64,000 nucleotides of DNA, taken from contig JAVKOQ020000029.1 in the NCBI GenBank assembly GCA_031835245.2, positions 186,001-250,000 of the forward strand, written 5' to 3'. The stretch is from Balamuthia mandrillaris (lineage: Eukaryota). This document shows, piece after piece, positions 22,169 through 64,000 of the stretch. The notes under the pieces were generated by a model, which made no database searches, was not told the origin of the DNA, and was given only the letters and a program-made list of their open reading frames with translations. Both the position numbers and the translations under genes were made by a program. The first letter of the stretch is position 1. Each line of letters starts with the position of its first letter.

Positions 22169-25100
22169 AAAGAAAGACGAAGTCAGAGAGTTGGCCAGCA
22201 AGAAAACAAAGGAACAGAACAAGAGGTACCTGAAGTCGGTCTTTAGCAAGTTTAAAGAACGCGTTTAAAACCGCTTCAAAGAACTTTGGATCCACTTTGG
22301 AGTAGAGCTCTCTCAATCTAGACTTAGATGAAAGCAGAGAAGAGGGAACATTCGAAGAAGACAGGGAAGCACCGGCAATGGATGAGGAAACAGGAGTGAC
22401 GGAAGAGGAAAGACCACTGCTGTTGTTACTACTTGAGAATATTTTCAGCTCTTCCTGAATGCTGTCCATCACATTCTTAACAAAATTGAATGGCGGAAAT
22501 TTGAAGAGGTTTTGAAAGTGATAGGGCGCTCCTATAATCCTTAGTATTTCCAGTATGGCAATGGCGCTGTTGGAGGAGACGGTGTAGACTGGGGCTGAGG
22601 GAGAGGAAGAAGAGATGGAGCTTCGTTTGGGTTTCTTTGGGGTTTTGCTTGTTTCTTTCATGTTGTTGCTACTACCAAGATGGTTGTTGCTCAGAGAAGT
22701 GATGACAGCGCCGCTGCTGCTGCTTCTGTGGTGACTTCGAAGGTTCTCGATAGCTTCTGATACCGAGGAAGCTAGTACCGGCGTCGCTGGTGGAGTTAAG
22801 GCAGTAGTAGAGGATGAAGAAGACGAGGAGGTAGAAGAGTTGCTGTTGTGGAGAGAGTTCCCTTGAGAGGACAAATGGTGCTGCTGCTGTTGCTGTTGGC
22901 TTCGAAGCTGATGAATGATGTAATGGTAGAGGACAATGAACAGGTTGCCGCGAACTTCAGAGCTGCGAGTGTACATGTAATGTTTGATGACCCAGTCAAT
23001 GGCTGTTTTGGTTTGTTCTTCTTTTCGCTTTTTGTCTTCTTTGGAACAAGTGGAGGGACACGGTTCGCTTGAAGGTTTGCCAGGAGTTCCAATACGAAGA
23101 GAACCTGGACAGGATCGGGAGAGTAAATCGAGGTCTAAGGTTTTTTCTACAAATCTAAAAGAACAAAGCAAACGAAAGTTAAGGAGCATAAGACAAACAG
23201 TGAGACAACAAAAATAAAAATAATTTGAAAATAAAACAACGAAAGCAGGGGGATTATGAAAAGGATACAACATATTGACATAAATGCGCATGAGATGCCT
23301 GTACATGTCCGGACTGAGATTGTCTATCTTTTCAATGAATGTTGGTATGAGCCTTGCATCTAAACCTAATAGTCTTTGAGAGAGAGAAGTTTGTCAACAA
23401 AAATAATATTGCCAAAAGGAAAAAATACTCACTTGTCTCTGTCCACCCGACCTCCCTTAGCTATAAAGAATAGTAGACAATTAAGGGCTACCGACCAAAC
23501 TTTAGAGTCTTGCACCTGCTTGTGGAACATCCAAAGCAACATTTCTTCTAACACTGCAAATATTTCATCTTGTATTGTTTGCACCCGTCTTGGTGTGGTA
23601 ACGGTACTTGTTCCTGTAGAGAGCAATACGTCAATCAATCACATTCTCCTTTCTGTTCTCTCTCTCTCTCTCTCTCTCTCACTCCAAAATAGGAAAAGAA
23701 ATAAAAGGTGTCGCACCGGAAGTATCAAGAGCAGGAATCGGTTCCATTAGATTGATATGCACACTCAAATTAAGCAGCAAGTTAAAGGCGTGAATCTGCG
23801 TATCAGAATTGTCACTGCCCAACATCTCAAAGAACAGCGATAACATGATCCGCGAACTGGTTGATTCATCGGCGCAATACATATCCACCAAAAGCTAATG
23901 TATAAATGAGAAACAATGAGAAAGATGAGAAGGTTTTTTGCTTGTTTTTGTTTGTAGGCTCTCTCTCCTTGATTGTGAGGTTTTTGCAGTGGTGAAGAAG
24001 AAGGGGAAAAAAAAGAAAACAAACCTTAATGAGAATTTTTGAAGCAATCAAACAGCTCTCTTTGTCATCTTCTGGAGGATGAACCACGGAGTTGACCACC
24101 TGATCCATCTCGTTGGGGGAGAGCGAGAGAGGTTGTTGCTCTGTGTAATATTTGTATTGAAAGAGTTGAACTCCTTTTTTCCTGATTGTCGCCAATCCTG
24201 TTTGTCTGTATAGTTGCACCTCCTCCCTGTTGTAAGAATGGTTAATATGAGCCAGATGAAGAAAAAGAAAAATTTTAAAACTTAAAAAAAAACAAGAGCA
24301 AGAAGGAAAGTGTAGTATAAGTCAATACTTTTTTTTAGCAGCGCTGACGGTTTCAATATGGTTTTGAAGGGATGCAGGATCTGGGACAACCAAGTCTTTG
24401 TTGCCTGAAATGAGTTTGAACACGTGCCACGAATAGAGAAAATGAGTTGAAGCGGATGAAGAAAAGAAATTGAATCTAAATACTAGGTACCCTTGGCTGA
24501 TTTTAGAGGTCCAAAAGCAGGTAGAGAAGAGAGATTGAACTCCTCTTCAAAGCTAGATTCTTCGGGCAAAGCTGAGAATATTTTTTTGGCTTTAGCTTTG
24601 TTGAGTGCAAAAAAGTTGGTGATGAGTGCTTTCTCTTTGGTAGCGGCAGCCGCAGCAGCAGCGGCAGAGTTATTCGAGGAAGATCCGGGTTTGTTGCCAT
24701 CACTCACGCCATCATCTACCGAAGATGACAACGACGAGGAACCTGGCCTGTTGCTACTTGAGCCACCAGAACCACCGAGCCCATCTCTGCTTTGTTTGCG
24801 ATGGCTGGAAGAGGGAGAAGGAGGATTGGAGCTAGCGGGAGAAGCAGTGGCGTCTCTGGAAGTGGAAAGACTAGAAGCAGAGGATAGGCTGGACCTATTA
24901 TTTCCGGGGAGAGAGTTTCGTTTTTCACCTTTGGGTGAGACGTCATTTGTAAGCAACGGCTTGATGAGCTTTCTAATGAATTGTAATGTCTTTGCAACAA
25001 AAAAAAAAAGAACATAGTTAAAGATCAATAGAAGGAAAAAATGGAAAAACGAAAATAGATAAGAAACCAAGAAACAGAAATGAAAGCTTACTTTAATATC

Positions 25101-25902
25101 GGTTGGCGCTTTGGCGTCTTTCTTCATGTTAACGCAAAAGCAGTCTATTTTTTGAAGGGTTTGGACGCTGGGGATGTGGTGCGTAAGGTGTGTCCGCAAG
25201 AGCTTGATGGTGTGACTGATGACTTGCGCTTGTGTGCCCTTCACTGGAGTCTTGTTGACTTGCACACGTTCAATTATTTTTTCGTAGGCTATTTATCGAT
25301 GTTTTGATGGTGATAGTTTGTTGTTCGTTCCATTCAGTTACAATTGAGCGAGAACAAGAAGGATGCAGAGCACAGAACGAAAAAGAGCGAAGCGGAGAAG
25401 GGTAATTGAAAAAGAGAGCAGAGAAGCAGAGAACAAGAAGACAGGATAGCATAAGAGGAGAAGAACAAAACAAGGCACAGAGAGGGAAGAAAGAGAAGAA
25501 CAAGAACAAGAAGAAGAAGAAGAAGAAGAAGAAGAAGAAGAAGAAGAACAAGAAGAACAAGAAGAACAAGAAGAAGAAGAAGAACAAGAAGAAGAAGAAC
25601 AAGAAGAAGAACAAGAAGAAGAGCAAGAAGAAGGAGAAGAACAACAATAACAACAATCAAGAACAAGATCAAGGCGACGGCGAAGACGAAAAAGAAGCCG
25701 AACAAGCAAAAGACAGAAATGACAACGCACCCAAGTCAATGGTTTGTGGGTTGGAGAGGTATTTGTTGAGCTTCTTGGCAGCCTCAGGCGGGGGAGTAGC
25801 AAGCGTGTTCTCATAGACAACTTTGGCAATGAGCTGGCTCAACATCCTGTTCTGGGTGGGGTTGGGCGAGGTCGGCCCGTTCTTTACCTTTTCGTCCGTC
25901 AT
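20759..25902 (-). CDS. Large conserved helical protein resembling the plant CLoG1/At3g12590 family
   Basis: LFQYKYYTEQQPLSLSPNEMDQVV; ILIK|LVDMY; HAFNLLLNLSVHINLMEP; VWSVALNCLLF; IGGVNFFKKLL; KAQATHNDKLLSNFYLQ. Family assignment is from recalled motifs. Confidence 0.7.
23155..23268 (-). other. U12-type GT-AG intron
   Basis: 5' splice site GTATCCTTT; branch site TCCTTAAC (23185-23178); ends TTTTAG; splicing gives ...VNML|FVEK in frame. Confidence 0.85.
25490..25645. repeat. (GAA)n/(AAGAAC)n microsatellite in an intron
   Basis: Tandem aag/aac triplets. Confidence 0.9.
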
Positions 25903-26435: not shown

Positions 26436-26444
26436 GGCGCGAAA
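26436..26444 (-). promoter_or_regulatory. E2F consensus site (TTTCGCGCC) about 90 bp upstream of the Claspin-like gene
   Basis: Plus strand GGCGCGAAA; matches TTTSSCGC. Confidence 0.6.
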
Positions 26445-28294: not shown

Positions 28295-28342
<48 letters not shown>

Positions 28343-32976: not shown

Positions 32977-33317
32977 GGTTGGCGGCGGAAAGTGTGTTGG
33001 TGTGGTTTCTTTCTTTCTTGTCTCTCTAATATAGCTCGTTAGATCGATAATTTAATTCTGTTATCAAAATTGTTAGCAACAATCGATTTATGTACAATAA
33101 TTGTTTGCCATTGTGACAAATTCAAATGCAGGCAGAAGACAAGAGAAGGAAGACTTCGACATTATGGGGGCTGTGTTGTTTATGACATTCATTTTCTTCA
33201 TGTGCTTCAGCTTGCTAGGTGTCAAAACAGCCAACGCCGTCCTCAGAATATATAACCTCAAACTGCTATAAAAAAAAATGAATTAGTAGCAGAAAAACAA
33301 GAAACCTGTAAAATGAG

Positions 33318-34274
33318 CTAAAAAGGATGGGGTACCATGTTTACACTTAGCTCTTGCAAATGGTCGGCAGAAGGATGCTTGCCTTTTGGACGTCTGTTGC
33401 GAACCACGTCCTCACGAAAGTCCTTCAAGGCCTCCAATACTAACGCCCAATAACGCCTGTCTCGCCTAAAGCGAAGAATGTTGGTTCCCTATCAAACAGT
33501 TTAATATTAGTCACAAAGCAAGAAAGAAAGAAAAAAAGAAATATACTTTGGGAGTAAAACTGCAAAGGTCGCAATAGTCAGTATTGCAAAGCTCCATATA
33601 GCCTTGAATCTGAGGAATGTAGTAATAGGCCCTGTCCAACGTTTGGTGCGGCACTGCAGTGTCTGTGTCTCCACGGTTCCACGGACACTTAACTTCCACA
33701 ACGCCCTCGGGCCAGGGGTACCCGTCACGACGGAAGACGAGGGCATCAGGGATGCCCACCAACCAAGGATACTGTGGATGGGAGAACCGCCTTATCATTC
33801 CCGTTCAGCATATTAGAAGAGATGCAAAGAGAAAAAAAAAAGAGCAGAAAGACGGAGAAAAGCACGGAAGAAGAGTAGAAGCTCAAAAAAAAAAAAGAAC
33901 GAGAAAGAACACAAACCTACACTCCTTCTGGACATAGAGACTGTATTTGCAAATGGAGTATATCTCCAGTGCTTTTGGTTCGTTTAGTATACCCCATCTC
34001 ATAGCCTCGCTTTCTGTTGGGGGAGGTCTTATTCCAGTCATCTGCTCCCACAGCATTTCTCTGGAAGTGTATGGATGGATGCCAACAGCTTCAGCAAACC
34101 GACTTGGTCCAAGGTTTGGTATCTTGCGCCTTCTTTTGCACCATGCTGCAGTTATTGCTTGTTTTTGGTTCGCTTTTGGTTTGCATGTGCCCAAGTGCTT
34201 CTTGGGTGGGGAGGAACGAAAAACAAACCATACACCACCAAGAGCGTGGCCGCAACCCACAGCAGCCAGTGCAT
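33318..34274 (-). CDS. YqaJ/lambda-exonuclease-like PD-(D/E)xK nuclease, intron-containing; start uncertain
   Basis: SRFAEAVG; AMRWGILNEPKAL; PWLVGIPDA; EVKCP; YYIPQIQGYME; RDRRYW. Confidence 0.85.
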
Positions 34275-40614: not shown

Positions 40615-43208
40615 TTAGTCGCTTTCTTCTTCACTGCTGGAGGAAGAGGAGCCCTCTTCACTTTCAGCAGCTTCAGAGGTCTTTTCTTTATCCTGGCTTT
40701 CGTCCTCTCCGCTACTGTCTCCTGCAGCACTCTCCTTTCGCTTGCTCACATTCAAAGCACTCCCTTTTGTATATTCACTGCCACCTTGGTCATCATCGTC
40801 ATCTTCTTCCGTATTTACAGTGTTCTCATCCGCTGGACTGACGATCGAGTGGAATACCTCTTCCAATGCTATGGATTTAAATGTAATATTATAACACCCA
40901 CCACTTGTTAGGGAGATGGGAACTCTTGAACAAGAGAAAGAAAGAAAAGAAGCAAATAAACGTACTTGTGTTGCAAATGCCCCAATCGCTGATACCTAAC
41001 CGCTCCCTATTCGCTTCCATCTCGCTGAATACCTGTGACAAAACGACTGACTTCTTGTCAATGCGATAGTTGCGCGTGCCAGCCAAACTGTTGAGCAGGA
41101 TGCACCCAGGCAGCAACTTCTTGACAAACTTGTGAGCAGCAGCATCGCACTCGGGAGAGGCGTGGACAGTAAGCTTGTAGCCAGCTCCAAAGCGTCGTTT
41201 AAGGTCGGAGCTTGGGCCAATGGCCTTGAGCTGACCGCCCGCCATCACGATGACTCGGTCGCAGAGAGCTTCAGCCTCCTCCATGGAGTGGGTGGTCAGC
41301 AGAAGGGCGCTCTTTTTCTTGCGTTTGGCGATGGTTTCCCACAAACCTCTCTTGGACTTTGGATCCAATCCTCTATTTGTTTCAGGTTTGAAGCAAACGA
41401 ACGAAATAAGTACAACATTCGATAGCAAAATTGAGAGGAAGAAAAGCGAATGCGAGAAACGTACGTGCTAGGCTCATCAAGGAATACCATTTTAGGTTCA
41501 GCCATCAACGAAATAGCGACACTCAACCTCCTCTTCATTCCTCCGGAGTACTTGCTGGAGAGCTTGTTGCGAGCTTCTCTCAAGTTGACAGAAACCAACG
41601 CTGCCCTGACTGCTTTGTGCAAGGCCGGTCCTTTTAAGTTCTTCAACCTCCCGTAGAAGAGAAGGTGCTCTTTGGCGGTCATGTTGCCCCAAAGGATGTC
41701 GTGCTGCGGGCAGACGCCTGTCAACATGTGGACCTGGTCGATCTGGTCTTTGATGCTGAGGCCGAACATCTCTGCTGTGCCGCTGCTTGGCTCGAACAGA
41801 CCTGTTAGAATGCTGATTAAAGTGGTTTTGCCCTATTATATACGAAGATTAGAATGATACACTGAGAAACCAAACAAAGAAAAACACCAACGAGAAAGTC
41901 ATACCGCTCCGTTCGGACCCAAAATGCCAACACACTCACCAGCAGCAATGCTGAAGGCAACATTGTTCACAGCAAAGTAAGGTGCGGTCAACTTGGGCTT
42001 CTTCCTGCCACGAGTAACAAACTCCACTAAACGACTCCACCAAATCTCCAAGTAAGAGGAACCACCGAATCTCTTCTTGATGTCTAACACTCGCAAGGCA
42101 TTGCCAGCTCCTCCGATGGCGTAAGTTTTTTGACGTGCGGCTGCTACGTCTGTGGGTTCGTAGGAGGTATCTTCATGTTCAGTCTTTGTGTAGTCAGTTT
42201 CCTCTGCTGGAAACCATTTGGAGAATGGAGGCACTTTCTTCAACCACGCCAAGAAGAAGAGAGGGTGTCTCTTCACTCCTTGTCCGGAAGGAAAGACGTT
42301 TTCCAAGTAACTGTAAGAAAGAATATTTCAGTTAAAACGTACACCACAAGTCTAACAGAGAGAAAGAGAAACATAGAGATATGAGATGAGATGAACGTAC
42401 TAAGCCATAATTAACATAATAAACCACTCTACGATGAGATGACCATAGACGGCAAGCATGTTGAGGTCTTCGTTGGCAATGTCATCTAGTTTCATACCAG
42501 GGCCATTGAATGCCACCTCGTTTCCTAGATAAACAAGACCCCTATACAATGCAAATGGAGGAACAATACTGAGGCCAAACAGAGTGGCTGTAAAGCGACA
42601 AGAAGAGGATAGAAAACGAGTTACAAACATGGTGAGCGAGCGAGAAAACGAGAAAGAAAAGGTAACGAATAAATAAATCAAGAGAGAAGTTGATTTCACC
42701 TCCGGGTGTATCAATGTCACTCACTAGCGAGTCTACCAGATATAAACAGATGAAGCAAATGGCTAAGATGAGGAAATAACCCACAACTTTAAATTGAAAG
42801 ACACCAAATGAGTTAAAAACAACCACAAGCAGGAGAAAAAAAGAAAGGTAAGAAAAGAGTACTTGTTGCTGTTTTTGCCTTGTTGAAAAAGACGGAGAGC
42901 AAGAAAGACATTGCAATGAGCGTGTGACCCCATATGAGAAATAATAAGAAATATAGCAAGAAGTTATTCACAGTGAAGAACCGGAACTCTAATTTGTGTT
43001 GTTTCAATTTGAAATAAAAACGAGATTGTCAGCTCTTGTGGCCACTAAAACGAAATAAGAAACTAAGTAGGCAAAAAGTTTCGTACGAAAGATCCAGCCA
43101 AACACAATGAGAAAGAGCATTACGCCGAGGTACAAAATATAGTTGAAGAGGTAAAGGACTACCCAATAGATCCACATTTTTAGGCCCATCTTTTTGCAGT
43201 TTTGTAAA

Positions 43209-43252
<44 letters not shown>

Positions 43253-44696
43253 CTACCATCTTCATGATCTCTCGGAGCCGATGTTCTTTTTCATAGGCAA
43301 TTGCCTATTTGCTAAAGTTAAACAAAAGAATAACAATTCTGAAATAGAGCAAAGACCTACCGAAAGAAATACAGGAAGCAATTGATGCAAGATCAACGCA
43401 TAGAAAAAAGCTGTAAAAAGTTTGACGTGTAGGTTAGACAATTGTAAGGAAAATAAAGTGAAAAAGGATACCACTTACATCCAGCTAAACTGGCCAAATC
43501 TATTGTCGTTTCATCATCATCTCTCGGAATGTTCTTTATTCCAACTGAAATGCGTTTAAAAAGAACGTTTAGGGAAGAGAGAGAGAGAGAGAAAAAAAAA
43601 AGAAATACGAACTGAGTTCAATAATAGAATTTCCTCCGGAAATGAAACGAGAAAGGGCATTCGTTATGAGAGAGAGCGCTCCTGGGACGTCTCTGCCACG
43701 CGTGACGGTATAGTTGTAGAAAACGGAAACCCTGTACACGTCGTTCACCGTGTCGACAGTCTGAAACTCAAACGCTGTTGTGTAGAACCCAAAAGTTAGA
43801 AAACGCAAAGCGAAAGGAAGGAAATGAAGAGAAAGACCATTTGGATAGAGTGGGACCTCAGCGAATGCACCAAAGAGAATGGCATCTATGTCAGCTTTGC
43901 TTGCTTCTTGTTGGAAAGAAAAGTTACGAGGACGAGACACGTAATCATCCAAGTCTTCTGGAAACAAGTCAGAGTCCGAGAATTCCAAAAACTGCAGTTG
44001 GTTGGTAAATATGTTAAAACCTAACGTTAAGCCGCGGGACAGAGAACGAGAGAAAGAGAAGCAAAGAGAGAGAGAGAGAGAGAGAGAGCATTTGAGTGAG
44101 AATAACCGTGCCTTGATGGAAAGGGTATCGTTTATGATCTCTCCTAATAGGCCAGTGCCTCCACCCGGTTCGTACTGGCCGACCCCCGTGTTATTCGTGT
44201 AGAGCAACACCACGTCCCCTATTTGGTCCAGCCGGTCCACTTCCGTCAGTCTGTTGTTGTTTGTTAGAAAGAGGAAAAGCACGAAGAAAAAAAGCAAGAG
44301 GGTGAGTGTGTGGGTGAGCGAGTGAGGTGGTACATGAGAAAAGGCTCACGAAGGGGCGGGCTGGGCTGCGCCTCCAGGTCCTCCGCAAACACCGAGTCGA
44401 TCCAGATCTGGAGGCCCAAAATAAGGAGCAACGCTGCCAACGGCGTCAACAGCTGGCAAACGTTGGTAGCATAGTTTCGTCTCTGCATTACATACAGTCG
44501 GAGTCGTTTGTGAGTTCTTGTTACTGTCTAAAGGAACAACGCAAGATGGGAGGAAAGAAACCTGAAGCGTTGCGTTCTTGACGAGAAGCGCCCAGAACTG
44601 AGCGCTGGCCGAGAAGTTGCCTTTGACGGTGCGTTGGATCCTGGATCTGGACAAAGTGGAGGGAGCCTCCACTTCGATGTCGTCCTCCGATGGCAT
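40615..44696 (-). CDS. ABCA-family half-transporter (TMD-NBD), resembling plant ABCA3-8/12 type
   Basis: QFWALLVKNATLQ; EKEHRLREIMK|MGLK; GILGPNGA|GKTT; GVCPQHDILW; YSGGMKRRLSVA; LDEPST|GLDP; LTTHSMEEAE. Confidence 0.93.
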
Positions 44697-45241: not shown

Positions 45242-45339
45242 ATGACGGGGACAAACAAGGTGAATGGCTTTTCGAAATGGTGGACCCAGTTTCGTTTGTT
45301 GATGTGGAAAAACTGGCTTTTGACGGTAACGTTCGCACG

Positions 45340-45380
<41 letters not shown>

Positions 45381-46014
45381 AGCCCCAACTGACTTTGTGC
45401 CTTCAGAAACGAAACAAAAAGTCATTTTTAGTGCAGATAGCGGCTCCGTTCATCCTGGTGTTCATGCTGTGGGTCATGGAGAAAGCCATCATCTCCTCTC
45501 AGGACGACAACTTCTTTGAAGTCAGTACGTATCGCTTTGCTCTCTTCTTTGAGCGGTGGCCCAAGTATCACTGACCCATACGTATGTTTGTGTTCACACC
45601 AATTTTAAAAAAAAAGTACGGTCCTACAACAGAGAGCCAGCTGGCCACATACCACGCTGCGTTACCGGAGACCCTGGCTATTGCTACACCTTTGTCTACG
45701 CTCCCGCCAACGACACTGAAGTTGAAACCATCATCAGAAATGTTTGTAGTTTTCTTTTTCCTTTTCTTTTTCTTTTTCTTTTCTTTTCTTTTCTTTCTTC
45801 TCTCTCTCTCTCTCTCTCTCTTACGTACGGTGCTCTCAACAGATACGAGAACAAAATGACCCACCTATACCGGAGAGCGAAGTGCGTGGCTTTGCTGACT
45901 CCACCGAGGTGGATGACTTTATTTACAACCATTTGAACACCACTCAAGGCGGTACCTAATCCTTTTTAGTTTCACTTCATTCTTCCTTCCTTCCTTCCTT
46001 CCTTTCCTTTATAG

Positions 46015-46046
<32 letters not shown>

Positions 46047-46376
46047 CTTTCTTGTAGTTTCCTTGGTGGGCTTTGTTTCGTTGCTTTCTTATTTCTGACC
46101 TCTCTTGTCTCTCTTCTCACATTCACAGCCTACATCTTTGACTTTGTGGAGGAAACCCCTGGAGTTCGCACACTGTCCTACATCTTGCAAGTCAATGAGA
46201 CCAACCAAAGAAGACAAGGCCGTCTGATAGAGTACACTACCTATCTGCAAATCCCGATGGACGTTGCTGTCCAGCGACAACTCTTTAGGCTGGCTACCAA
46301 CAATCCAGACCTGCAATGGGACGTTGATCTCGTGGAGTTTCCTCATCGCGAGGTCGAGACCATCGATAGTACGTTG

Positions 46377-46410
<34 letters not shown>

Positions 46411-47785
46411 CTCTCCACTCTAACAATATTTTTTTGATACTACAGTTATTGCTGCTGGTGGTCCTCTCTTCTTTTTTGGCGCACTTATGTTTAACTTTGT
46501 GGTGGGTCTCACTCAGATAGTTATCGAAAAAGAACAACGACTTCGGCTCTTCATGAACATAATGGGACTTATGGTATCTGTTCATTCTGCTCCGTCTTCT
46601 TCTCATGTTCTAAAATTTATTATTTTTCTTTGTTTAAATAGGATTCTGTATTTTGGGCGAGTTGGTTTCTCGTTCAGTCTTTGTACAGCACCTTGACAGT
46701 GTTCATTCTCATCATATCGGCCCTCATCTTTGACTTTGACTTCTTCATCAAGAACGACTTTGGAACCTACTTCTTGTTGATGTGGCTTTTTGCCTTGACA
46801 TTGATTCCTTTCTCCTTCCTCATTTCCACCCTCGTCCGCAGAGCCAAACAAGCCAATATCCTTTTCTATGTTTTTCTCTCTTTTTTTTCCCTTTGATTTT
46901 CTATGTGCTTAAGGTTTTATCTGGACAAAGTTGTTTGACTTAACTAATTGCCTTACCTAGCATTGGCTTCTTTGTTTTTGTCTCTGGCTTTATCTTTCAG
47001 CTGGTGGCAGAGTTTATTTATTCGGACAGTACTCCAGCCTTAGTTCAATACATTTTGGCCTTCTTCTCCCCTGTTATCTTCACAAAGGGACTTAAAGACT
47101 TGGGAACCTATTCCGACGAGGAAGCTGATGATGGTTTCCTTCCGTCTCTCTCTTCATTTTTCGTTATCTAACGTTCTGCTCTGTTCTTTTCTTGACAAAG
47201 GACTCGCCTTTTCTGAGGTTGATGATTACACGAACGACTTTCCGTTGTCAACGATCTATGGCTGGCTACTTTTAGACTTCGTGATTTATTGGGTATTAGC
47301 ATTGTATCTGGACAACGTGGTACCAACCGAGTATGGCATCCGTCGTCCATTGCATTACTTTGTGACACCCAGTTATTGGACTGGCAAGATGGATCCCAGT
47401 GATGATGGCATAGGACCTGTCTCTGAACCTGATGTATGATTTGTACTCCCTTACTTTTCCATTTTTCGTAGCCTCTCGTTGATATTTTTGTATTGTCACT
47501 GCAGCCATCCACCATGGACGCAGATGTGTATAAGACCGAAATGTCGGTCCGAAATGGACAAACCCCAGAGACAGCTGCTGTCAGGGTCGTGAACTTGAAC
47601 AAGACCTACGGCTCTTCCAGAAAAGGAGGCTGCTGTTCATGTTGCAATTGTTGCGCTTGTTCATGCTGTTGCAGTTGCTTTTGTGGCAAGAAAGTGCATC
47701 CCTACACTGCTGTTTCCAATGTCTGGTACTACATTGACTCGAATCAGTTGTTCTGTCTCCTTGGTCCCAACGGTGCTGGCAAGGT

Positions 47786-47821
<36 letters not shown>

Positions 47822-48657
47822 TTTCTCTTGTTACTTTAAGTTCTGTCTTTCTGGAACATTGTACTGAACATAGAAATGAAAATAACAAAAAAACAGACAA
47901 CAACAATTAGCATGTTAACAGGGCTTTTGCCACCAACACACGGCAACGCATATATTTACGGCAATTCCATCATTCATCAAATGACAAACATTCAGAAAGT
48001 GATGGGCGTTTGTCCTCAGTTTGACGTTTTGTGGGATGAGTTGACTGGAAAGGAGCATCTTCATATCTTTGCAGGGCTCAAAGGGATCCCTGGATGGAAG
48101 AACATGCGTGCGGAAGCTCGTCGTCGATTGGAGGTTTGTTTTCTGTTTTCTGTTTTTTTCTGTTTTTTTTTTAATTCCCTACTTACAATGTCGTGTTTGC
48201 AGGACGTGTCCTTGACATCAGCGCGTAACAAGCTTACTCACATGTATAGCGGAGGCATGAAACGTCGCCTTTCTGTTGCCATTGGTTCTTTCTCTCTTTG
48301 CCTCTCCTTATTTTCCTTATTACTTCTACTGACTGTTTTGATAATATTAGCCCTTATTGGTAATCCAAAAATCGTTTTCCTGGATGAACCGGTACTCTCT
48401 CTCTCTCCTTCTCTCTTTCTCTTTTCACTCATTTCTCTCTCTCTCTCTCATCTTATCACTCACATTTAATTTATTTCTCTCCCTCATTTTTTGAAAACCA
48501 ACAACAGACAACCGGTATGGACCCTGTTTCGCGAAGGCAAGTATGGAACATCATCGAAAGAGCAAAGAAAGGACGAGTCGTGGTGCTAACAACTCACTCT
48601 ATGGAGGAAGCTGATATTTTGGGTGATACAATTGGTACCGCGTGCCTCCCTTCTCTC

Positions 48658-48689
<32 letters not shown>

Positions 48690-49548
48690 GCTCTCTCCTG
48701 ATCGATAACCCTAACTCTAACGAATAACTTTTACAAACCCCAACACAGCAATCATGGCAAGAGGAAGACTGCGTTGTATTGGCAGTTCTATTCGTCTGAA
48801 ACAAAAGTTTGGAGCTGGTTACCGCGTTACTGTTTGTACAGAAGAAGGCAACGAACAACCTGTCATCGATTTCTTCACGCAACACCTCGAGGGTACTGCC
48901 ATCTTCTTTGATGTTTTTTTTCTCTATTGTTGTTCTCTTTCTACTGAACCTGTTCCTAACATGAACTGTACATAAATAGGAACTGTATTGGAGTCTGAGC
49001 CAGTGTCGGGTTATATGACATTTAACATTCCACGAGACCTTAGCGAAGCGCTCCCCGACTTTTTCGAAGAACTTGAATCTCATTATGATGACCTTAGCAT
49101 CTCTGACCTCCAATTGAGTTTAACGTACATCCCTCCATTGTTATCTCTTCCCTCTCTCTTTTAAACAACTGGTTAAAATCTGTGTCTATCATTCAGAACT
49201 TTGGAAGAAGTCTTTCTCAAGATTGCCAAAGATGCAGAAAAGGAAGCAGGTTATGATAGCGACGAGGACGAAGCTTCGCAGGACAACGAAACCTGGATCG
49301 AACGAGCCGCAGATAAGAAGGGCCTGTTGGGCAGGCTTCTCCACAGAAAGAAAAGAAAAGAAAAGATGGAGGAGGCCACCGAGCTAAAAACAGCAGCAGA
49401 TCTTGGCATCACCGAACGGAAGAGGAGAGAAGAAGGAAAACCAGGAAGTACTTCTGCCTCTTCGTCAAGCGAAGAAGAATCTGAGGAAGAAGAAGCGGAA
49501 GGCCTTTCTCGGAGCGAGTCTTCCTCCGAAGAAGACTCGGACGAGTAA
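45242..49548 (+). CDS. ABCA-family half-transporter (TMD-NBD), resembling plant ABCA2/9 type
   Basis: MTGTNK...QFRLLMWKNWLLT; EKEQRLRLFMNIMGL; LALYLDNVVP; QLFCLLGPNGAGK|TT; GVCPQFDVLW; YSGGMKRRLSVA; LTTHSMEEADILGD; LEEVFL. Confidence 0.93.
46856..46956 (+). other. U12-type AT-AC intron
   Basis: 5' splice site ATATCCTTT; branch-like GACTTAAC (46937-46944); ends CCTTAC; splicing gives RAKQA-T-SIGFFVF in frame. Confidence 0.88.
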
Positions 49549-49679
49549 GTTTATCCTATCACACCTATAAATGTTGTACATGACAGCTTTTTTTGTTGCA
49601 TACCACGGTGCCCTTGTCTACTGAGTCTCAACCAAAACGGAAATGCATGGCCAAACAGCCTTCCGTTTGCATGCAGTCA

Positions 49680-49721
49680 CAGAGAGAGAGAGAGAGGGAG
49701 ACAGAGAGAGAGAGAGAGAGG

Positions 49722-49764
<43 letters not shown>

Positions 49765-49779
49765 GAAGAGAGAGAGGAG
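49680..49779. repeat. Intergenic (AG)n microsatellite with GGAGAC interruptions, upstream of ORC5
   Basis: Direct inspection. Confidence 0.9.
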
Positions 49780-49823
49780 AACAATAGAGGCCGGATTTCC
49801 CAAGTTGAGGGGTCAGCTAGAGT

Positions 49824-49832
49824 TTTCCCGCC
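49824..49832 (+). promoter_or_regulatory. E2F consensus site (TTTCCCGCC) about 30 bp upstream of ORC5
   Basis: TTTTCCCGCCAAAA; matches TTTSSCGC. Confidence 0.65.
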
Positions 49833-49859
49833 AAAATGAACCCCAAAAAAAAAACGAAA

Positions 49860-51745: not shown

Positions 51746-51791
51746 TCAAGGAAGAGTTTGTTATGTGCAATTGGTTTTTTTTTTTGAACAG

Positions 51792-54700
51792 TTAGGAAGC
51801 GGTGGAGTTGGTTTCTGAGGTTTTGGAAGAAGATAGATGCTTGGATTTGCGGGCTGTAAAGAGACGAAGAAGAGGAGCATAGTCAAAGGCAGGAAGAGAT
51901 ACGGCAGTGGGCCTGCCTTTGCTCTTATAGTAGCTGGCTATAAACTCATCGGTGTTGGAGCGGATGGGGACGGGTCGTGGTTTACTGGATTTCTTTTGTT
52001 GCTGTTGTTGCTTCCGTTTGGTTATAGTGGAAGCCGTGGTAATTTTTGTAGATGTTACAGTTGCTTGAGGCCGTTGCTCTTGTTCAGAAGAATTTGTGTG
52101 CAAGGTATCTACTTTGGCTTCAAGACTGATTTTTCTTCGCTTCTCTGTCTGCTTTTTATTATTGCATTGCGGTTGAAGTTCTTTGGTGTTGGACTCATTT
52201 TTGCGTTTGTTGTTGCTGACAGGAAATATAACGGGGATTATATCATCGTTTTCTACAGACGCTCTTCCTTCTACTTCCGTCATCTTTGCACCGTCTAATG
52301 GAGACGATGATGGAGAGGATTGAGGCGAAGAATACTGTCGAGGAGGTGTCGATGGTACAATGACTTCCGAGTGTTGCTGCACATCCACGAAGAGAAGATT
52401 ATTCGTCTTGGTGGGAAGCAGAGGAAACATTGGAAGCGCTGGTTGATTGGCGTCTTTGATCGCGGGTTCTATTGGCGTCGAGGATGAGGTAGATACACAT
52501 GTGGAGGTAATTACAGGGGCAGAAGATAGAGTTGCGTTGCTGGCAATTTGTGCAAAAGAAGCTGAAGAAGAAGCAGTAGGATAAGAAGAAGAAGAAGAAG
52601 ATGATGATGATGATGATGATGAAGATGAAGATGAAGATGAAAATGAAGATGAAGATGAAGATGAAGATGAAGATGAAGATGAAGATGAAGATGAAGATGA
52701 AGATGATGAATTCATGGAAGTGGGGTTGAGGTATGGTTGGATAGGGTTAAGTGCTTCTGCTTCAGTTGCTCGGTGGGAAAAGGCATTGGTAAGGGAGGTA
52801 AGAGCTGTTGAGATTGCTCGTGGCAAGTACGAACTGAAACCATAACTTGACTTTGTGGTGTGTTTGCTGGCGAGTGAAGACGTTTTTTTAGCGGTGGGGG
52901 GTGAATCTTCTGGAGACTGAGGCAACAGGTCGAACTCAGTAACTTGTTCTGAGAGCAGCGGAGGTGGTTTCGTTGGAGATATGGGGATTCGTTCCTCTTG
53001 TCTAGTGTTTTAATGTTAAGACTTTTACCAAAGAGAAAGAGAGAGATGCGCACGTGTACAGTCCAAAATAGCTATCATAGACAGAATGTAGATCATTGGA
53101 TTGGGAGTTTTCAGATAGAATGTGTTCGTTTTGGCTAGATTGTTGCTCTTCTTGTGACGCATTAATTTGAAGAGATTGCTCTACTAAACTTAGATCTTCG
53201 GCTTTTTCCATCTTCAGAGTTAACAATAAATCCATTCAAGAAAACGCAAGTAAAAACCTACCATTAGCTGCGTCCTTCTTTCTCTTGGAAGGGGAAGGCG
53301 AATCACTGTCGATAAGAATGATGCTTTGATGTTCCTCTTCCGTGAAGGTGCTCCTTGTCAATTCTTGTTGTGGCGGAAACAAGACTGATTGATCTTCAGC
53401 AAGAGGTGAAGGAAGTGAAAGTGAAGCAGAGAGATTGTCGGAAACGTTCTCCTCACCCATTACCGCATTTTCTTTGTCGTCCTCTGTCATTTTGCTATAC
53501 TTTGCCTTCCTTTCGGTTTCTGTACGTTTAGTTGTGTGATCTGATGCTTCTTCTGGCTTTTCGTTTTGTTCTTCCTTCTGTTTCTTTTCGTTTTCATTAC
53601 TCTCGTTGTTTTCTTCTTTCTCTTTCTGCTTCTCTTCCTCTTCTTCTGCCTCTTCCTCTTCAGGAGTAGGTGATACCCAAAGAGAGAGCAAGGGATCTTC
53701 CTGTTCATCGTTGCTGTCTTCATCTTCTTCCTCTTCTCCAGACAAATGTATGGGCTCTTGGTTAGCATAAAAATCCTCCAACGAAGCAGGGATAACCTAA
53801 CGGTCCATGAGACAGTCAGCAACCAATTAAGATCAATATAAATCAATACAACTCACATCTGGTGTTTTGAAATCAACTTGTGAGGCGGAAGTGCTTTGCA
53901 GAATGGCGTCCATTGGAGTCTGCAACTCGCTCATTTGTTGCTGTTCCTCGACTTTCCACCCTTCAAGGCCGTCCAAGATAGCGTCCTGTGAAGCAGATAT
54001 AACGCAATCTTGCTCCATTGTTTTCAACTGCCAACAAAGGTAAGCCTATTGTTAAATACAAGAGGGATGTTACTTACTGGGTTCATTTGGGTGGATGCCT
54101 GCACAGTTTGAGTAGAATTAACAGCAGCACTTGCGGTGGTGGCCTTTGTTTTTTCGGGCGACTTGCAAACAAATCAATATCACAAAGGAAACTAGGAAGA
54201 AACATAACAGAAACTGTTAACGTACTGCAATAACGGGTGCTTGTGATTGAGAAAAGAACTGAGAGTAGTCGGACTGGGATTCAGATGAGTCGGCAGCCAT
54301 ATCCAACAAGAGATCTACTCCGGTTTGGGTATCAGTAGAGATGTTCATATCGCCGCTGCTCAAAGCACAACAAAAAAAAGATAAGCATTGAGAAAGACCC
54401 CAGACAATAAATGATAGACGAGAATTGTATCCTACCTAGCTTGACTTTGTATCCGCGCCACTACCATCGGATTGGAGTTTACAGAAGTAGGGTCTCCATG
54501 CGTGAAGCAGCCCTCTCCTCCGATGAAGGAAAACTCATTCACAACAATGTAGTACTTGGCCTGAGGGCTGAACGCGAACCTGTAGTCGGTAATGCTGAGG
54601 ATCCCACCTTTCAAGCGTGGAAGAGACAAAGACTTGAATTCGCTTTGTATGTTTGCCATGTTAGTTAAAAAAACAGAGCATTAGGGCCTGTGACTAAGTA

Positions 54701-58052: not shown

Positions 58053-61000
58053 ATGGAAGGAGCGGCTTCACCAGTGCAAGACGGTCTCGTTGTGGTTCGG
58101 TCCCTCTCCGACCAAATGAAAGCTCACCTGGTGGTTGTACTGGACAAGAAACTGGACCTGTTGCCGCTGGATGACCTCAATGACAAGAAGACCCTTCGTA
58201 ACCTTACCTTCTCCAAAACCCTCAACAAAACCCTGCGTGGCAACAAAGCACTTGCTCGCTCTTCCACCAACAAAGTATAGCCTTTCATCCCTTCTCTTCT
58301 CTCTTCTCTATTCTCTATCTCTTCTTCTTGTGCTTCTTCTTGTTCTTTTGCTCTTGTTCTCCGTTACCTCCTCCTCTTCCTTCTTCTCTCAACTTCATTG
58401 TTTCTTCTCATGCAACAAGGGTTTGGTGGATGAGCTGCTGCTGGGGATATGGGCCAAGTTCCCACGCAACACTGACTTTTACGCCAGCCTTGCCACCGCA
58501 TTCGGGGCGGTGGCCAAGCACTGCCTGGAAGACACCGTGAAGCTGCTGCTGCAGTGGCTGCCGCTACACTCGGTGGCCTACACGCGCATGCGCAAGGGCG
58601 CCCTGCGTGTGTTGCAGCAGCAGGAGGAGACCATCAACCAGTTTGATGCGCTGTTGGCCAGTTTGAAGAACTTCAAGTACACCGAGCACAAGAAATGGGA
58701 TCTGTTGGTGCGTTGTTGAGAGGAAGAGCCAGAAGAGAGTGAAACAAGAAAAGTAGAAAAAGGAGCAGCTTTTACGGTGTGCGAGTTTCATTTCTGACTT
58801 TCTTTTGTTTTGGTCAATTTAACAACGCAGGAGTGCGTGACCGACCAAGTGGTAGCGGACTTGCTTGCTCATGTTCTAGAACACTATGAAGGCCACCAGC
58901 TTAGCCAAAGTACGTGTGTTTAGCAGTCGACGTTTAAAATAATGCGGCCGTATACTTACTCTGATTTCTGACTAGAGACCCTCATCAAACTGAAAGACTT
59001 GGCGTTTCACTTTTTCAAACCAGCTTCCTTTACGACGTGCGTTATCCATTGCGCGAGCAGTGCAAGTGTTTTCACAAGCTGCTTGTTTTTTTTTTTGTGG
59101 TGTTTACATCTTCTTTTTTAGCGCGATCAAAGACACAGTGTGGAACGCTCTTAGAAAACGGCTTTCCAAGCAATGGGCTGTCATCCTCAGCAAGCTCTCT
59201 TACTACAAGTACACTCACTCTCTCCTTCGTCGGATCCTATCACTAACTATTGATTCTTTTTGTTTGTTCATTCTTGTCGTTCTTCCTCTTTCATTGTTGT
59301 GGCATTCGTTAGCCTTAGCCTCATTACCAACCAGTTGTGGAAGAATGTGGCCAACGCAGGCTCTCAAGAAGTCCAAGCATACTATCAAGGGATAGCATGG
59401 ATCCAGTTCAATGTACTCCCTCTCTCTCTCTCTCTCTCTGTTCTCTTTCTCTCTCTCTCTCTCTCTGTTCTCTTTCTCTCTCTCTCTCTCTGTTCTCTTT
59501 CTCTCTCTGTTCTCTTTCTCTCTCTCTCTCTCTCTGTTCTTTTTCTGTTACCAACGTTTGGTCACTTTTCCCTTTGTTTTCTTCTTTCTTGTTCTACCTT
59601 CTCTCTTTCTCTCTCTCTCTCTCATTGAAGGCATCGGACAAAACCTCGATGGCAGAGAGCAGCAACTTTCTGACCCAAATGATGGAGCACCTGAAGGCAA
59701 AAAAGAACTCCATGAAGAGCATACAGCTTATTGCGCTAACGAGTATTATTCAATCGCTGCCTTTGCAAACTGAAGACTCCATTTGGCAAAAGGTTACACA
59801 AACTTCACACTTCGTTCTTGCCTCTTTAAGAACTTATTTACCTTCATCTTTGTCTTTAGGCTCTGGATATATACAAGAGAGCGTCGAAGTGGGCCAAGTC
59901 AGATGACTTGGAGGGCTCTGCATTGATCCTGATGGCGACTATACTGTTGCATGGCCCAGCCCAATACTTTGAAGACCAATACGATACGTTTGTGCAGAAA
60001 CGCTTCAAGTTGGTGTGGAATCCTAAACGAAAAGACCACCAACTGAGCTGTCTGCTTCGGCTTCTTCAAGGAAGGTTCATTGCTAAACCCAGTTTGTGGG
60101 ATCCAGCCGGACAAAATAACCAGCTTTCCTACCAACTGTTACCCGAAGGAAAACTGCGGAAGCAAACCTCAGCTAAAGTTTATTCTTTTGCACCTCTGGC
60201 TGCTAATCTGGGCAAAATGAACGAACGACTGCTGGAGATATCTTCCGTTTTGTTTGGCAAGAAGATACCATTGCCCAAACCAGTACCTTCGGTTCCTGTT
60301 TGTGTTGAGATTATTCTTCAAATAGCTGCGCATAGGTATGTTGACTTCCTTGTCATTCTTTCTTTCAAACTCTGTTTTTTTACGTTCTCTTCTTTTGTCC
60401 CTTGCAATTCTTTCATTCGTTCACTACTGTTTCTCTGAAGACCATGTGCTAAATGCTGTTTCTCCACCATTATAGCCTATCTTTTGCTGCTCAAAGCGTG
60501 TTTCATGTGCTCTTTTCAGAAGGCAATATAGTACCAGTTCATCGCCTAATTGGTTTACGAGCTCTTCGAACCATTGTTGATCAGCAATCTGGATGGTGGG
60601 CAAACGCTGCCAGTACACCGAAGAGCAGTCAAGAAAAAACGGCTTTGAATCAGGTTACCCTTCAGTTCTTCTCTGATCCTCCTGCTCTCGCTCACTCTTT
60701 CACCGTAACACTTGCAGAAGTTGGAGGATTCGGGGCACTGCATGTCTCTATCAGAGCTATTAAACATGTTTTCTGAGGTGCTGGCCAAAACGCTTCGCTT
60801 TTGTGATGAACAAGCTGGAGTGGATGTCATGGGTCGGAGCATTGCTCCTCTGGAAGTCTCTTCCTATCTTAAGGTGACACTCTCTCTTCCGTTAAAGTTG
60901 GCGTGTTTATAACAAAGGTAAACATAAAACAGTCACCTTTAAGAGAATACGAGGAGCATGACAGCACTGCAATTTGTGCGTGTCCGCTCGAGCAGTTTAG

Positions 61001-64000
61001 AGAAACAACGCGACGAATGGCCTTGCAACGACTTTATAAAGTAATCACCATACCTCCTGACATTCGCGAAGAAGAGTTTGAATCAAAACGGCAACAAGTG
61101 GTATCTATTTTCGGTCCTTTCCATTCTCAGAGCGACCGCTTTGTAATAACCGAAATTATTTGTTACATTCTGATGTTAGAACTCTAAAATGGAGGGTATT
61201 GTGGAGGCGTGGTATAAGAACAGCGATATCGCGCAACGTACTTCTGGTTCTCAAAAGACCTCAGAAGATCAACCCGACTTTTCCAAGCTGGTGCGGCCTC
61301 CTTGTGTCATATTATCCTTAACGAACAGTAGATACTAACCAATCACAACCGCAGTCATTTAAGGAGGTTAGAAAGTTGCATAAACGTATTCTAAATCCGC
61401 CAAATCAAATTCTCATTGACCTTTATCGAGAAGCAGTTGCTTGCACTCCTTTGGTAGGTCTTGTTCACGTTTGTCATTTTGCATTGTTTTCATTCTTTAT
61501 TGTTGTGACACAAAAACCTAGTTGCTACCAAATGGAATCATTGCAATGATGACCAATCCAAACGAATCGCTCACCAAGATCCTGATACACAACGTGGACG
61601 AGTTGGCTTGCATTGCGTCTCATGCCCTCCAGAACATTCTGATTAGTTCTCCAGCTCACCGTTCTGCCATTCTTCAGGTTGCGTTTCAGTTTATTTTGTT
61701 GTTTTGTTGTTATGCTTTCTTGATCCTCACCACTTTAATTAGGGGGTTGTTAACGTGACCATGGCCCAGAAATCTTATGAAGAAACAACCTGCTTGTACA
61801 CTCTCTTTTCGCAGCTCCTCTTATTTACTGATATCTGTATCGAACGTCAATATGCAGAGAAATTCACTTCCTCTCAACAAACCTTCTCTCCACCTTCTTT
61901 GCATGAGGTTCGTTTTCATTTCTTTACCTGATCCTGTTGAACTCACTGGCTTCGTTGCTCTTTTTTCATCTTGTTTTGTCATTTTCAGGGCGAAGCAATT
62001 GCCTTGCTACATCTTTGCCATCCTAATCCTGACATAAGACGACTGTGTCTTAAGTTTCTTCACGCGTGGAGCGTGCTTTGCAGTTCACATGATGAGACGA
62101 GGTAATAGTGGTCCTTGTCTTGCACTATTTCTAATTATGATTCTGACAAGTATTCTACTTTGCAGTGCCTCACAAATATTATGTGCTCAGAAAGAAGCCA
62201 TCATTCAAAAGGCCCGTTTTAGATTCCTATTAAATGCAGCAGAGGGAATTAGCAGCTCTGTATTGGTGGTGGGTACTCTGAATCGAATTTGGAAGCTCTG
62301 TTTTGTTACTCATATTTGATTTTCCTATGTCATTTTCTTTTTTTTAAACAAATTCAGAGCCATGATAGTCCTATTCCCAGCATAAAAGAAATAGCCATGT
62401 CTGATCAGACGGAGCTTTGGGCTTATATCCTTTGTGAGATTGGTAGAGCTTGTGTGGAGATGGTTTGTAGAGAATGTTTTTTCTCTTCGTTGCTAATCAC
62501 GCTGTCATTCCTAGGGTCATGAGAAGACACTTGGCATTGTGCGTCGCTTACTGGAGGAACGCTTACAAAGTCTTCCAGCCTTGCCAATGGAAGAAACCCC
62601 AGAACTGGCAAAGAAACGTGGTTTTTCTCATATCCTTGTTCATTCTTTCTTTTTTGTTTAACGTAGAAGTTTAAGGCGTTATGATTCTTTAACTCTTTCG
62701 CACATTATCACATTTGGAGGAACTATGAAGCGCTCTATTTTGCTATAGCAGGAAGGGCAAGCGGTCCTTCCAGTAAGGCATTGTGGGAGCCGTACTTCCT
62801 TCCAGAGGAGCAGGAACTGACTCCCACTGAAAAGAAAGAGCTGTACACCATACGACAAAGGCTGATGCTTCATATTTCTTCCCTCTTGCCAGTGGTTCTT
62901 TCCGAGGTAGAATGGGTGCCAGAGGGTATTGTGCTAGCATGTGGTTCCATTCACTGGACTTGCACTAGCACACTAGTCGGTTCGCTGTTTCAATGGTACA
63001 CTGACGGAAAGCATTCAAAAAAGAAGAACAACAAAGCATGGACGGTTATGGCTCGGATATTACGGTAAGTTTCTTTCAAGCGAGATGTTATATGTATCCT
63101 GGTTGTAACCTCTTTTTTTTTTCCTGGTTCAGTCATATTGCCCAAGAGCCCAGTTTTAGGGTTGCCGTTCAAAAGGAACTCTTTCCCACACACTCTTCCT
63201 CTCCTCCTTCTGCTAAGACCAGAAAGAGCATCACTACTCCACCTCCAAGTATCCTTCAATTGCCCTCAACCCCCACGCCAACCACCTCTCCACTTTCGTC
63301 TCCTTCTTCTACTGCTCCTGCTCCTGTCCCTGCCCCTGCCCCTACTTCTGTTTCTATCACATCCTCCACCTCCGCTTCTACGCCCTCTGTTCCCGCCTTA
63401 TCCTCTTCCTCTTCCGGACCAGCTCCTTCTTCATCCACCAACCCAGCCATCTCTCACTCAGCCAAGTCATCTATCGACTTGGGACAAACCGTCTTTTCTA
63501 CAATTCCTCCCACCAGTACCATTTCCTCTGCTGCTGGTGGTCTCTCTGTGTCTTCAACTGGCGTTCAAACAGCATCAGCACCCTCACCACAAAATCCTAC
63601 TACAGGACCTCCTTCAGGAATCTTTTCCTCAAGCGGACCTCTCCTTACCTCTTCTTCCCACGGCTCTCCTTCGTCCTCTGCGTTTTCTACTATTTCTGCC
63701 GCTTCTTCTTCCTCCGCTGCCCAACAATACAACCGCCATTACTCAGCAGACTCGGGTGTAGTGTCTGTTCATGCCATAGTAGATATGTACATACGATTTT
63801 TGGCAGAGCTGCCTTCCGTTATGAAAGATATGGGCAAAGGCAGCGCGTTGCTCACTTCTTCGCCGCGAGCTGCTGGCTTTGCTGACAATGCCTTGTTAGT
63901 GAACTATCTGGCCTTAGCTCTGCATGAGCCTACCCTCTATGCTCTACGGGGTCCATTGCGACTCTCTGTCACACCCTCTACTCGCAGATGGTCCGCCAGC
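58053..64000 (+). CDS. Furry/Mor2/Tao3-like large helical scaffold, 5' part (continues beyond the window)
   Basis: FGAVAKHCLEDTVKLLLQW; WAVILSKLS; LSCLLRLL; LIGLRALRTI; LYREAVACTPL|LPNG; IHNVDELACIASHALQNIL; EAIALLHLCHPNPDIRRLCL; IWRNY. Confidence 0.75.
62630..62703 (+). other. U12-type AT-AC intron
   Basis: 5' splice site ATATCCTT; branch site TTCTTTAAC (62685-62693); ends CGCAC; splicing gives KKRGFS-H-YHIWRNYEAL in frame. Confidence 0.82.

What the first reader, a model, noticed from the sequence alone, without database searches (positions are those of the whole stretch)
23155..62703. High density of minor-spliceosome (U12) introns: three in one 64-kb window
Seen: three introns carry the RTATCCTT donor plus a U12-type branch site near the acceptor, and each restores the reading frame (23155-23268 GT-AG; 46856-46956 AT-AC; 62630-62703 AT-AC). 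Known: U12 introns are well under 1% of introns in most eukaryotes and are lost in many protists, but are hugely expanded in the amoebozoan Physarum. Inference: three among very roughly 130-160 introns (my estimate), in host genes that are not classic U12 families, could mean a lineage-specific expansion or de novo gain of minor introns. GT-AG-only gene predictors would mis-model these genes.
Basis: partly seen in the sequence, partly recalled or inferred. Interest (0 to 1): 0.85.

Follow-up and report, generated by a model that had tools for sequence, protein, structure and literature searches.

The report
Three minor-spliceosome introns in Balamuthia amoeba
Three of about 164 predicted introns in this stretch of the amoeba Balamuthia mandrillaris are removed as described and carry the signals of the rare "minor" spliceosome, which likely means this species kept far more such introns than its relative Acanthamoeba, although one window cannot show a true expansion.

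Summary
The window is Balamuthia mandrillaris DNA (public proteins match it at 100%). All three introns are at the stated coordinates and are spliced as stated. Public protein models join intron 1 (GT-AG) and intron 2 (AT-AC) exactly. Three RNA reads in one run skip the 74 nt of intron 3 (AT-AC). They are the only 3 of about 164 predicted introns with a perfect RTATCCTT donor, and all have a U12-type branch site. Intron 1 is the weakest: in frame, no stop, branch at a major-intron distance. 3/164 is 1.8%; the 95% interval is about 0.4-5%. That excludes the published Acanthamoeba rate (12 of 87,865; P about 2e-6) but not a human-like 0.3-0.8% (P 0.01-0.16), and the scan has flagged similar "dense" windows in other genomes. 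No genome was held, so the genome-wide fraction and minor snRNAs are untested. De novo gain is neither shown nor excluded. No host gene is on the human/mouse minor-intron list. The plant ortholog lacks intron 1, but it also lacks the three nearby major introns. Balamuthia is absent from both large minor-intron surveys. Verdict: real U12 introns in an unsurveyed amoebozoan, probably at or somewhat above animal/plant density; expansion to 1% or more about 17%.

The parts
23155..23268 (-). Intron 1: GT-AG, U12-type (likely), 114 nt, phase 2, in frame without stop; branch 9-mer CTCCTTAAC at 23186-23178, 24 nt after the branch A
   Evidence: (P0001 spliced exactly here); homologues are conserved up to the junction and carry no 38-aa insert of this kind in the N-[ML]-[LF]-[YF] motif
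46856..46956 (+). Intron 2: AT-AC U12-type, 101 nt, phase 1; branch TGACTTAAC at 46936-46944, 13 nt after the branch A
   Evidence: (P0002 spliced at AT-AC); the paralogue aligns without gap across the junction
62630..62703 (+). Intron 3: AT-AC U12-type, 74 nt, phase 1; branch TTCTTTAAC at 62685-62693, 11 nt after the branch A
   Evidence: 3 junction reads in run X16
20759..25902 (-). Host gene 1: conserved uncharacterised 1193-aa protein (P0001), 13 introns; relatives in land plants, streptophyte algae, dictyostelids and other protists
   Evidence: no Pfam family
45242..49548 (+). Host gene 2: half-size ABCA-type ABC transporter (P0002, 966 aa), 15 introns in the public model
58053..64000 (+). 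Host gene 3: large multi-exon gene running off the window, tentatively Furry/MOR2-PAG1-like
   Evidence: weak Pfam PF14222 hit, E 0.003, below cut-off; transcribed and spliced; no homologue found
40615..44696 (-). Neighbouring head-to-head ABCA paralogue; its GT-AG intron 42862-42787 lies one codon downstream of the position of intron 2

Best explanation
The three introns are spliced out of Balamuthia mandrillaris transcripts and are likely removed by a conventional U12-dependent minor spliceosome, in a genome that likely keeps minor introns at roughly animal/plant density or somewhat above (about 0.2-1%), with this window a rich draw. Shown: the sequences, the junctions, and that these three stand apart from the other predicted introns in the donor motif. 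Inferred from established biochemistry: U11 snRNA pairs with RTATCCTT, U12 snRNA pairs with the CTTAAC/TTTAAC branch site, and U4atac/U6atac with U5 catalyse excision. AT-AC ends with this extended donor are the hallmark of that pathway. Inferred and untested: that Balamuthia has the four minor snRNAs, and that its introns are mainly an inherited amoebozoan set that Acanthamoeba largely lost or converted to major type.
For: Exact junction support for all three. Only these 3 of 164 predicted introns have 6/6 donor matches, with branch matches of 8, 8 and 7 of 9. A relaxed motif scan of both strands listed 8 candidates; the other 5 lie inside exons or inside major introns. All three are in phase 1 or 2, as typical of minor introns (P 0.15 alone). 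Acanthamoeba, in the same clade Centramoebida, has U11, U12 and U6atac, and many of its introns at human minor positions are classed major or major-like (PMC11347168 Tables S7, S8 rows). Protostelium (265) and Pelomyxa (90) show sizeable amoebozoan sets with little sharing with human (PMC10639083 section 24). Six of nine prior/bias settings give a posterior median of 0.29-0.54%, and the others 0.77, 0.81 and 1.6%; below 0.1% gets 1% or less in all nine.
Against: No genome-wide count and no snRNA search was possible (no Rfam hit in the window). Under a flat prior with no window bias, 1% or more gets 77%. No host gene is a listed human/mouse minor-intron gene, and intron 1 is absent from 22 of 22 plant genomic loci that cover the site, so 'inherited' is not demonstrated for any of the three. 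Intron 3 rests on 3 reads in one run. Introns 1 and 2 rest on public gene models whose evidence I could not see.
Confidence: 0.62

Rival explanations
1. Balamuthia has undergone its own expansion of minor introns to 1% or more of all introns by de novo gain, while keeping the classic branch motif, independently of Physarum.
For: Point estimate 1.8% (3 of 164). The host genes are not known minor-intron families. The position of intron 1 is absent in plants and that of intron 2 is absent from the neighbouring paralogue. Two of three are AT-AC. A precedent exists in Amoebozoa (10.1101/2020.10.12.336362, passages).
Against: The interval reaches down to about 0.4%. The window is full of old conserved genes, where human minor density is 0.83% against 0.28% overall. 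Only one such expansion is reported among more than 3000 genomes. The plant locus tested also shares 0 of 3 major intron positions in that region, so absence of intron 1 is uninformative. Sceptical priors give 0-34% for 1% or more.
Confidence: 0.17
2. Only the two AT-AC introns are minor; intron 1 is a major GT-AG intron whose degenerate, pyrimidine-rich donor matches GTATCCTT by chance.
For: Balamuthia major donors are loose: 6 of 161 begin GTATC, and GTATCCTT is expected 0.30 times among 161. The branch A is 24 nt from the end, in the commonest bin for the window's introns (21 of 80 with a YTRAY motif), against 11 and 13 nt for the AT-AC introns.
Against: A branch match of 8/9 occurs in only 2 of 161 major introns, so donor plus branch by chance is about 0.004 per window (my arithmetic). 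24 nt is within the 45-nt range quoted for U12 branch sites. With two minor introns the Acanthamoeba rate is still rejected (P 2e-4).
Confidence: 0.13
3. Balamuthia is as depleted as Acanthamoeba is reported to be (under 0.1%) and this window is a chance cluster.
For: Windows are selected for looking unusual. Amoebozoans other than Planoprotostelium average 0.01% in one survey.
Against: P(3 or more of 164) is 1.8e-6 at 0.014%; posterior mass below 0.1% is at most 1%. The three lie in three unrelated genes, so they are not duplicates of one event.
Confidence: 0.03
4. The AT-AC introns are removed by the major spliceosome (U2-type AT-AC) and Balamuthia has no working minor spliceosome.
For: Minor snRNAs were not tested in this species; major donors here are degenerate.
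Against: Both AT-AC introns have the full ATATCCTT donor and a branch motif 11-13 nt from the AC, which U2-type AT-AC introns lack (own knowledge). The sister lineage has minor snRNAs.
Confidence: 0.03

Closest known systems
Canonical U12-type (minor) introns of animals and plants
   Same: RTATCCTT donor, YYTTAAC branch close to the 3' end, AT-AC and GT-AG subtypes, none in phase 0, one per gene among many major introns.
   Different: Host genes are not on the human/mouse list. Introns are short (74-114 nt). Local density is 1.8% against about 0.28%.
Acanthamoeba castellanii minor introns
   Same: Same clade (Centramoebida); AT-AC and GT-AG minor introns reported (PMC2846911 section 11).
   Different: Only 12 of 87,865 annotated introns are classed minor there, though ESTs gave 2-3 of about 1,250, so the annotation figure may be low. 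The C-rich tract after the donor reported there is at most hinted in intron 1 and absent from introns 2 and 3 (by eye).
Physarum polycephalum expanded minor-intron system
   Same: Amoebozoan; minor introns in genes and positions not shared with animals or plants.
   Different: Physarum has 20,899 U12 against 154,299 U2 introns (about 12%) and a changed TTTGA branch 9-12 nt from the 3' end. Here 3 of 164, with CTTAAC/TTTAAC branches; intron 2 has a TTTGA, but further upstream and abutting a CTTAAC.
Protostelium aurantium (Planoprotostelium fungivorum) minor introns
   Same: Amoebozoan with 229-265 minor introns, few conserved as minor in other lineages: the closest match to my best explanation.
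   Different: 0.16% genome-wide; P(3 or more of 164) at that rate is 0.002, so Balamuthia is probably higher.

Membership tests
U12-type (minor) introns | Extended 5' splice site [GA]TATCCTT | tested here: met
   3 of 3 perfect; 0 of the other 161 predicted introns
U12-type (minor) introns | Branch site like TTCCTTRAC within about 45 nt of the 3' end | tested here: met
   8/9, 7/9 and 8/9 matches at 24, 13 and 11 nt; intron 1's distance is also typical of major introns here
U12-type (minor) introns | Actually excised at these ends | tested here: met
   public protein models for introns 1 and 2; 3 junction reads for intron 3
U12-type (minor) introns | Bias away from phase 0 | tested here: inconclusive
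   phases 2, 1, 1; P 0.15 under the window's phase mix
U12-type (minor) introns | Minor snRNAs U11, U12, U4atac, U6atac in the genome | not testable with these tools
   no genome held; none in the window; not mentioned in two Balamuthia genome papers as far as searched
U12-type (minor) introns | Dependence on the minor spliceosome | not testable with these tools
   needs knock-down or lariat data
U12-type (minor) introns | Position conserved in distant lineages (typical, not required) | tested here: inconclusive
   intron 1 absent in 22 of 22 informative plant genomic loci, but 0 of 3 major positions are shared with the one locus aligned; intron 2 is one codon off the paralogue's intron; intron 3 untested
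Physarum-type expanded system | About 12% of introns minor | tested here: not met
   3 of 164
Physarum-type expanded system | TTTGA branch with its A 9-12 nt from the 3' end in place of the classic motif | tested here: not met
   classic CTTAAC/TTTAAC motifs in all three; Physarum motif

The most novel reading that the evidence does not exclude
Balamuthia mandrillaris is a second amoebozoan with an expanded minor-intron set (1-3% of introns, on the order of 1,500-4,500), gained de novo in new gene families but with an unaltered branch motif, next to a sister lineage (Acanthamoeba) that lost nearly all of them.
Probability: 0.17. Interest if true: 0.82.

Novelty: new member of a known kind. Interest (0 to 1): 0.47.

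Why it matters
Balamuthia is missing from both large minor-intron surveys (0 mentions in the main texts and held supplements), yet RNA-seq-based annotations exist, so the question can be settled in a day of computing. Even the conservative reading gives a close pair: a minor-intron-retaining Balamuthia and an Acanthamoeba reported to have 12. That pair would date and dissect minor-to-major conversion within one clade. If the fraction is 1% or more, it would be the second case of minor-intron gain, and would show that gain does not need the branch-site/U12 co-evolution seen in Physarum. Practically, annotation of this human pathogen needs AT-AC junctions allowed.

Tried and rejected
No whole genome was held, so no genome-wide scoring or snRNA search. 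Rfam found nothing in the window. RNA reads were obtained only for 59700-63250 (15, 14 and 4 reads and 5 contigs laid); introns 1 and 2 have no read-level test, and depth was too low to measure retention. The run search listed no RNA holder of 43000-52900 (no evidence either way). No homologue of host gene 3 was found (which only covered proteins up to 2000 aa, best score 0.84, lead level only, 13 exons, nothing at cut-off). An AT-AG end at 46960 for intron 2 was rejected because it breaks the frame. In-frame GT-AG/GC-AG alternatives exist (21 for intron 2, 62 for intron 3), but the nearest remove 10-16 codons and disagree with P0002 and the reads. Other RTATCCT matches (20 in all) were rejected as exonic, antisense or internal to major introns. 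The ORC5 intron 50441-50510 (GTATCCTC, no branch) is minor-like only. Arabidopsis U12 lists could not be checked: no supplement held for PMC3371709; a preprint's main text did not mention ABC or the recalled gene ids (weak). FRY/FRYL Ensembl ids recalled from memory were not found in the PMC11347168 supplement (weak). The earlier-findings index had nothing for this genome. bioRxiv supplements were closed; that of 10.1101/2025.02.25.640156 may list the 100 annotated ncRNAs, including minor snRNAs.
Full report
Identity of the window. No genome was held. Two exon queries each returned one protein at 100% identity, both named by NCBI as Balamuthia mandrillaris: P0001 and P0002. Balamuthia and Acanthamoeba both fall in Amoebozoa, Discosea, Centramoebida.

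The observation. Intron 1 (23268-23155, minus) is 114 nt, GT-AG, phase 2. Intron 2 (46856-46956) is 101 nt, AT-AC, phase 1. Intron 3 (62630-62703) is 74 nt, AT-AC, phase 1. Introns 2 and 3 are not 3n and their removal restores the frame. Intron 1 is 3n without a stop, so frame logic says nothing about it.

Are they spliced? An exact spliced alignment of P0001 gives 13 introns including 23268-23155; that of P0002 gives 15 including the AT-AC intron 46856-46956. I could not see what evidence those public models rest on. For intron 3, reads from 3 RNA runs and contigs from a fourth were laid on 59700-63250. Coverage was thin (15, 14 and 4 reads; 5 contigs). Seven joints were listed: five GT-AG, one odd joint with five letters between, and one 74-nt skip seen in 3 reads with 3 starts in run X16. 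That skip can slide by 3 places; one reading is AT..AC at 62630-62703 and none is GT-AG. The other two runs showed no read at this joint, with near-zero depth there. Homologues support the host proteins across junctions 1 and 2: 61 aligned family rows keep the motif that ends at junction 1, and the neighbouring ABCA paralogue aligns without a gap across junction 2.

Are they U12-type? I built a self-training gene finder that predicts 164 introns in the window, median 80 nt. It reproduced all 5 GT-AG joints but also holds errors, so the count is approximate. After putting the two AT-AC introns in place of the GT-AG substitutes it had chosen, only the three introns of the finding match the donor at 6 of 6 positions, with branch matches of 8, 7 and 8 of 9 at 24, 13 and 11 nt from the end. 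The AT-AC pattern occurs twice, against a mean of 0.19 in 300 shuffles (1 reached 2). A relaxed scan of both strands gave 8 candidates; the 5 others sit inside exons or inside major introns. Intron 1 deserves caution. Major donors in this species are loose (6 of 161 begin GTATC; GTATCCTT expected 0.30 times), and a 24-nt branch distance is in the commonest bin for the window's introns (21 of 80 with a motif). An 8/9 branch match, however, occurs in only 2 of 161 major introns, so the joint chance is about 0.004 per window (my arithmetic). I put it at about 87% minor.

Mechanism. From established knowledge: U11 reads the RTATCCTT donor, U12 pairs with the branch site (the C-to-T change in intron 3 would give a G-U pair), and U4atac/U6atac with U5 carry out catalysis. 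None of these RNAs could be looked for in this species. Acanthamoeba has U11, U12 and U6atac on record (PMC11347168, Table S7 rows).

Is the density unusual? 3 of 164 is 1.8%; the exact interval computed for 165 is 0.4-5.2%. Published rates: Acanthamoeba 12 of 87,865 (0.014%; Table S4 row; also 12 in PMC10639083), Planoprotostelium 0.16%, human 0.276% overall and 0.83% in aligned conserved genes, Basidiobolus 0.55%, Physarum 20,899 against 154,299. P(3 or more) is 1.8e-6, 0.002, 0.011, 0.16 and 0.064 for the first five of these rates. The Acanthamoeba level is excluded, even counting only two introns (2e-4). An animal-like level is not, particularly as this window is packed with old housekeeping genes and windows are chosen for looking odd; the scan holds similar unchecked notes from three other genomes. 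Against the strong contrast, an EST survey found 2-3 minor introns among about 1,250 in Acanthamoeba (PMC2846911 Table 2), so its annotation-based figure may be too low. A rough Bayesian exercise over three priors and three window-bias factors gave medians from 0.29% to 1.6% and a share of 0-77% for 1% or more. The data therefore do not decide this; my 17% for expansion is a judgement.

Old or new introns? FRY, FRYL and ABCA do not occur in the 8 supplementary files of PMC6717393, where PTEN, DERL2, CACNA1 and MAPK1 do, so the hosts are not listed human/mouse minor-intron genes (host 3's Furry identity is itself weak). Host 1 has relatives in plants, algae, dictyostelids and other protists. 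A metagenome scan gave 39 plant-like loci: 22 genomic loci cover the site and none has an intron there, 5 are transcripts, 12 do not show the motif; many are near-duplicates. As a control, the one locus aligned in full shares 0 of 3 Balamuthia major positions in that region, so the absence carries no weight. The head-to-head ABCA paralogue has a GT-AG intron one codon downstream of intron 2's position: a near pair, open to sliding/conversion or to independent origin. Gain is thus neither shown nor excluded. Low sharing with animals is also reported for Protostelium and Pelomyxa.

Compared with what is known. The introns are ordinary members of the U12 class by every sequence test run. They do not meet the Physarum pattern (about 12%, TTTGA branch). 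Balamuthia is not named in the main text or held supplements of PMC10639083 or PMC11347168. Searches: at least 2 of 5 terms; none of the 30 listed of 815 mentions Balamuthia; Balamuthia + spliceosom: 7 papers, none on minor introns by title and abstract start; the one Balamuthia genome paper among them has no 'U12', 'U11' or 'minor'; 2 papers, both surveys. I found no report of minor introns in this species in the held library. Subscription papers, online intron databases and bioRxiv supplements were not visible.

What I saw of each paper: PMC10639083 passages, section 24 and a supplement search; PMC11347168 passages and supplement rows; PMC2846911 passages and section 11; 10.1101/2020.10.12.336362, 10.1101/2025.02.25.640156 and 10.1101/2020.10.19.345900 passages only; PMC6717393 supplement searches only; PMC10471605 passages and one supplement search; PMC3371709 listing only.

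Verdict. Observation confirmed. Minor splicing in Balamuthia is very likely, at a density well above that published for Acanthamoeba. Expansion is possible but unproven. New member of a known kind; interest 0.47, because the open question is real and cheaply testable.

Noticed in passing
window 42862-42787 (minus) against 46856-46956: Head-to-head ABCA paralogues carry introns one codon apart at the homologous site: GT-AG with a GTACTCTTTT start in one, AT-AC with ATATCCTTTT in the other. Possible minor-to-major conversion with sliding, or independent gain.
   Followed up: partly
window 50441-50510: Predicted ORC5 intron starts GTATCCTC but has no U12 branch site: minor-like, perhaps a converted minor intron or chance.
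   Followed up: partly
whole window: Major-intron donors are unusually degenerate (GTTTG, GTATG, GTGCG, GTTTT, GTAC-; only 8 of 161 GTAAG), which would ease minor-to-major conversion and raises false positives for U12 donor scans.
   Followed up: partly
window 48285-48350: The public model P0002 appears to read through an in-frame intron inside the ABC domain (a 22-residue hydrophobic insert), which my predictor splices out.
   Followed up: no
window 20759-25902: P0001 is labelled 'Protein timeless' by its source but has no Pfam hit; it belongs to an unnamed family shared by plants, algae and amoebozoans (one relative is labelled 'conditional loss-of-growth 1').
   Followed up: partly
window 43471 (minus) and 2245 (minus): Perfect RTATCCTT motifs lie 7 and 9 nt inside major introns; probably chance in pyrimidine-rich intron starts, but possible alternative minor donors.
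   Followed up: partly
window 61100-61185: Four reads in run X15 join 61100 to 61185 with five other letters between, beside the normal 79-nt intron: strain variant or alternative acceptor.
   Followed up: no
window 33215-34056 (minus): Intron-containing gene with a YqaJ-like viral recombinase domain (Pfam E 2.5e-4, just under cut-off).
   Followed up: no
window 25730-25289 (minus): First intron of host gene 1 is 442 nt, over five times the median, and holds a 156-nt TTC-type microsatellite; many introns in the window contain CT or TTC repeats.
   Followed up: no
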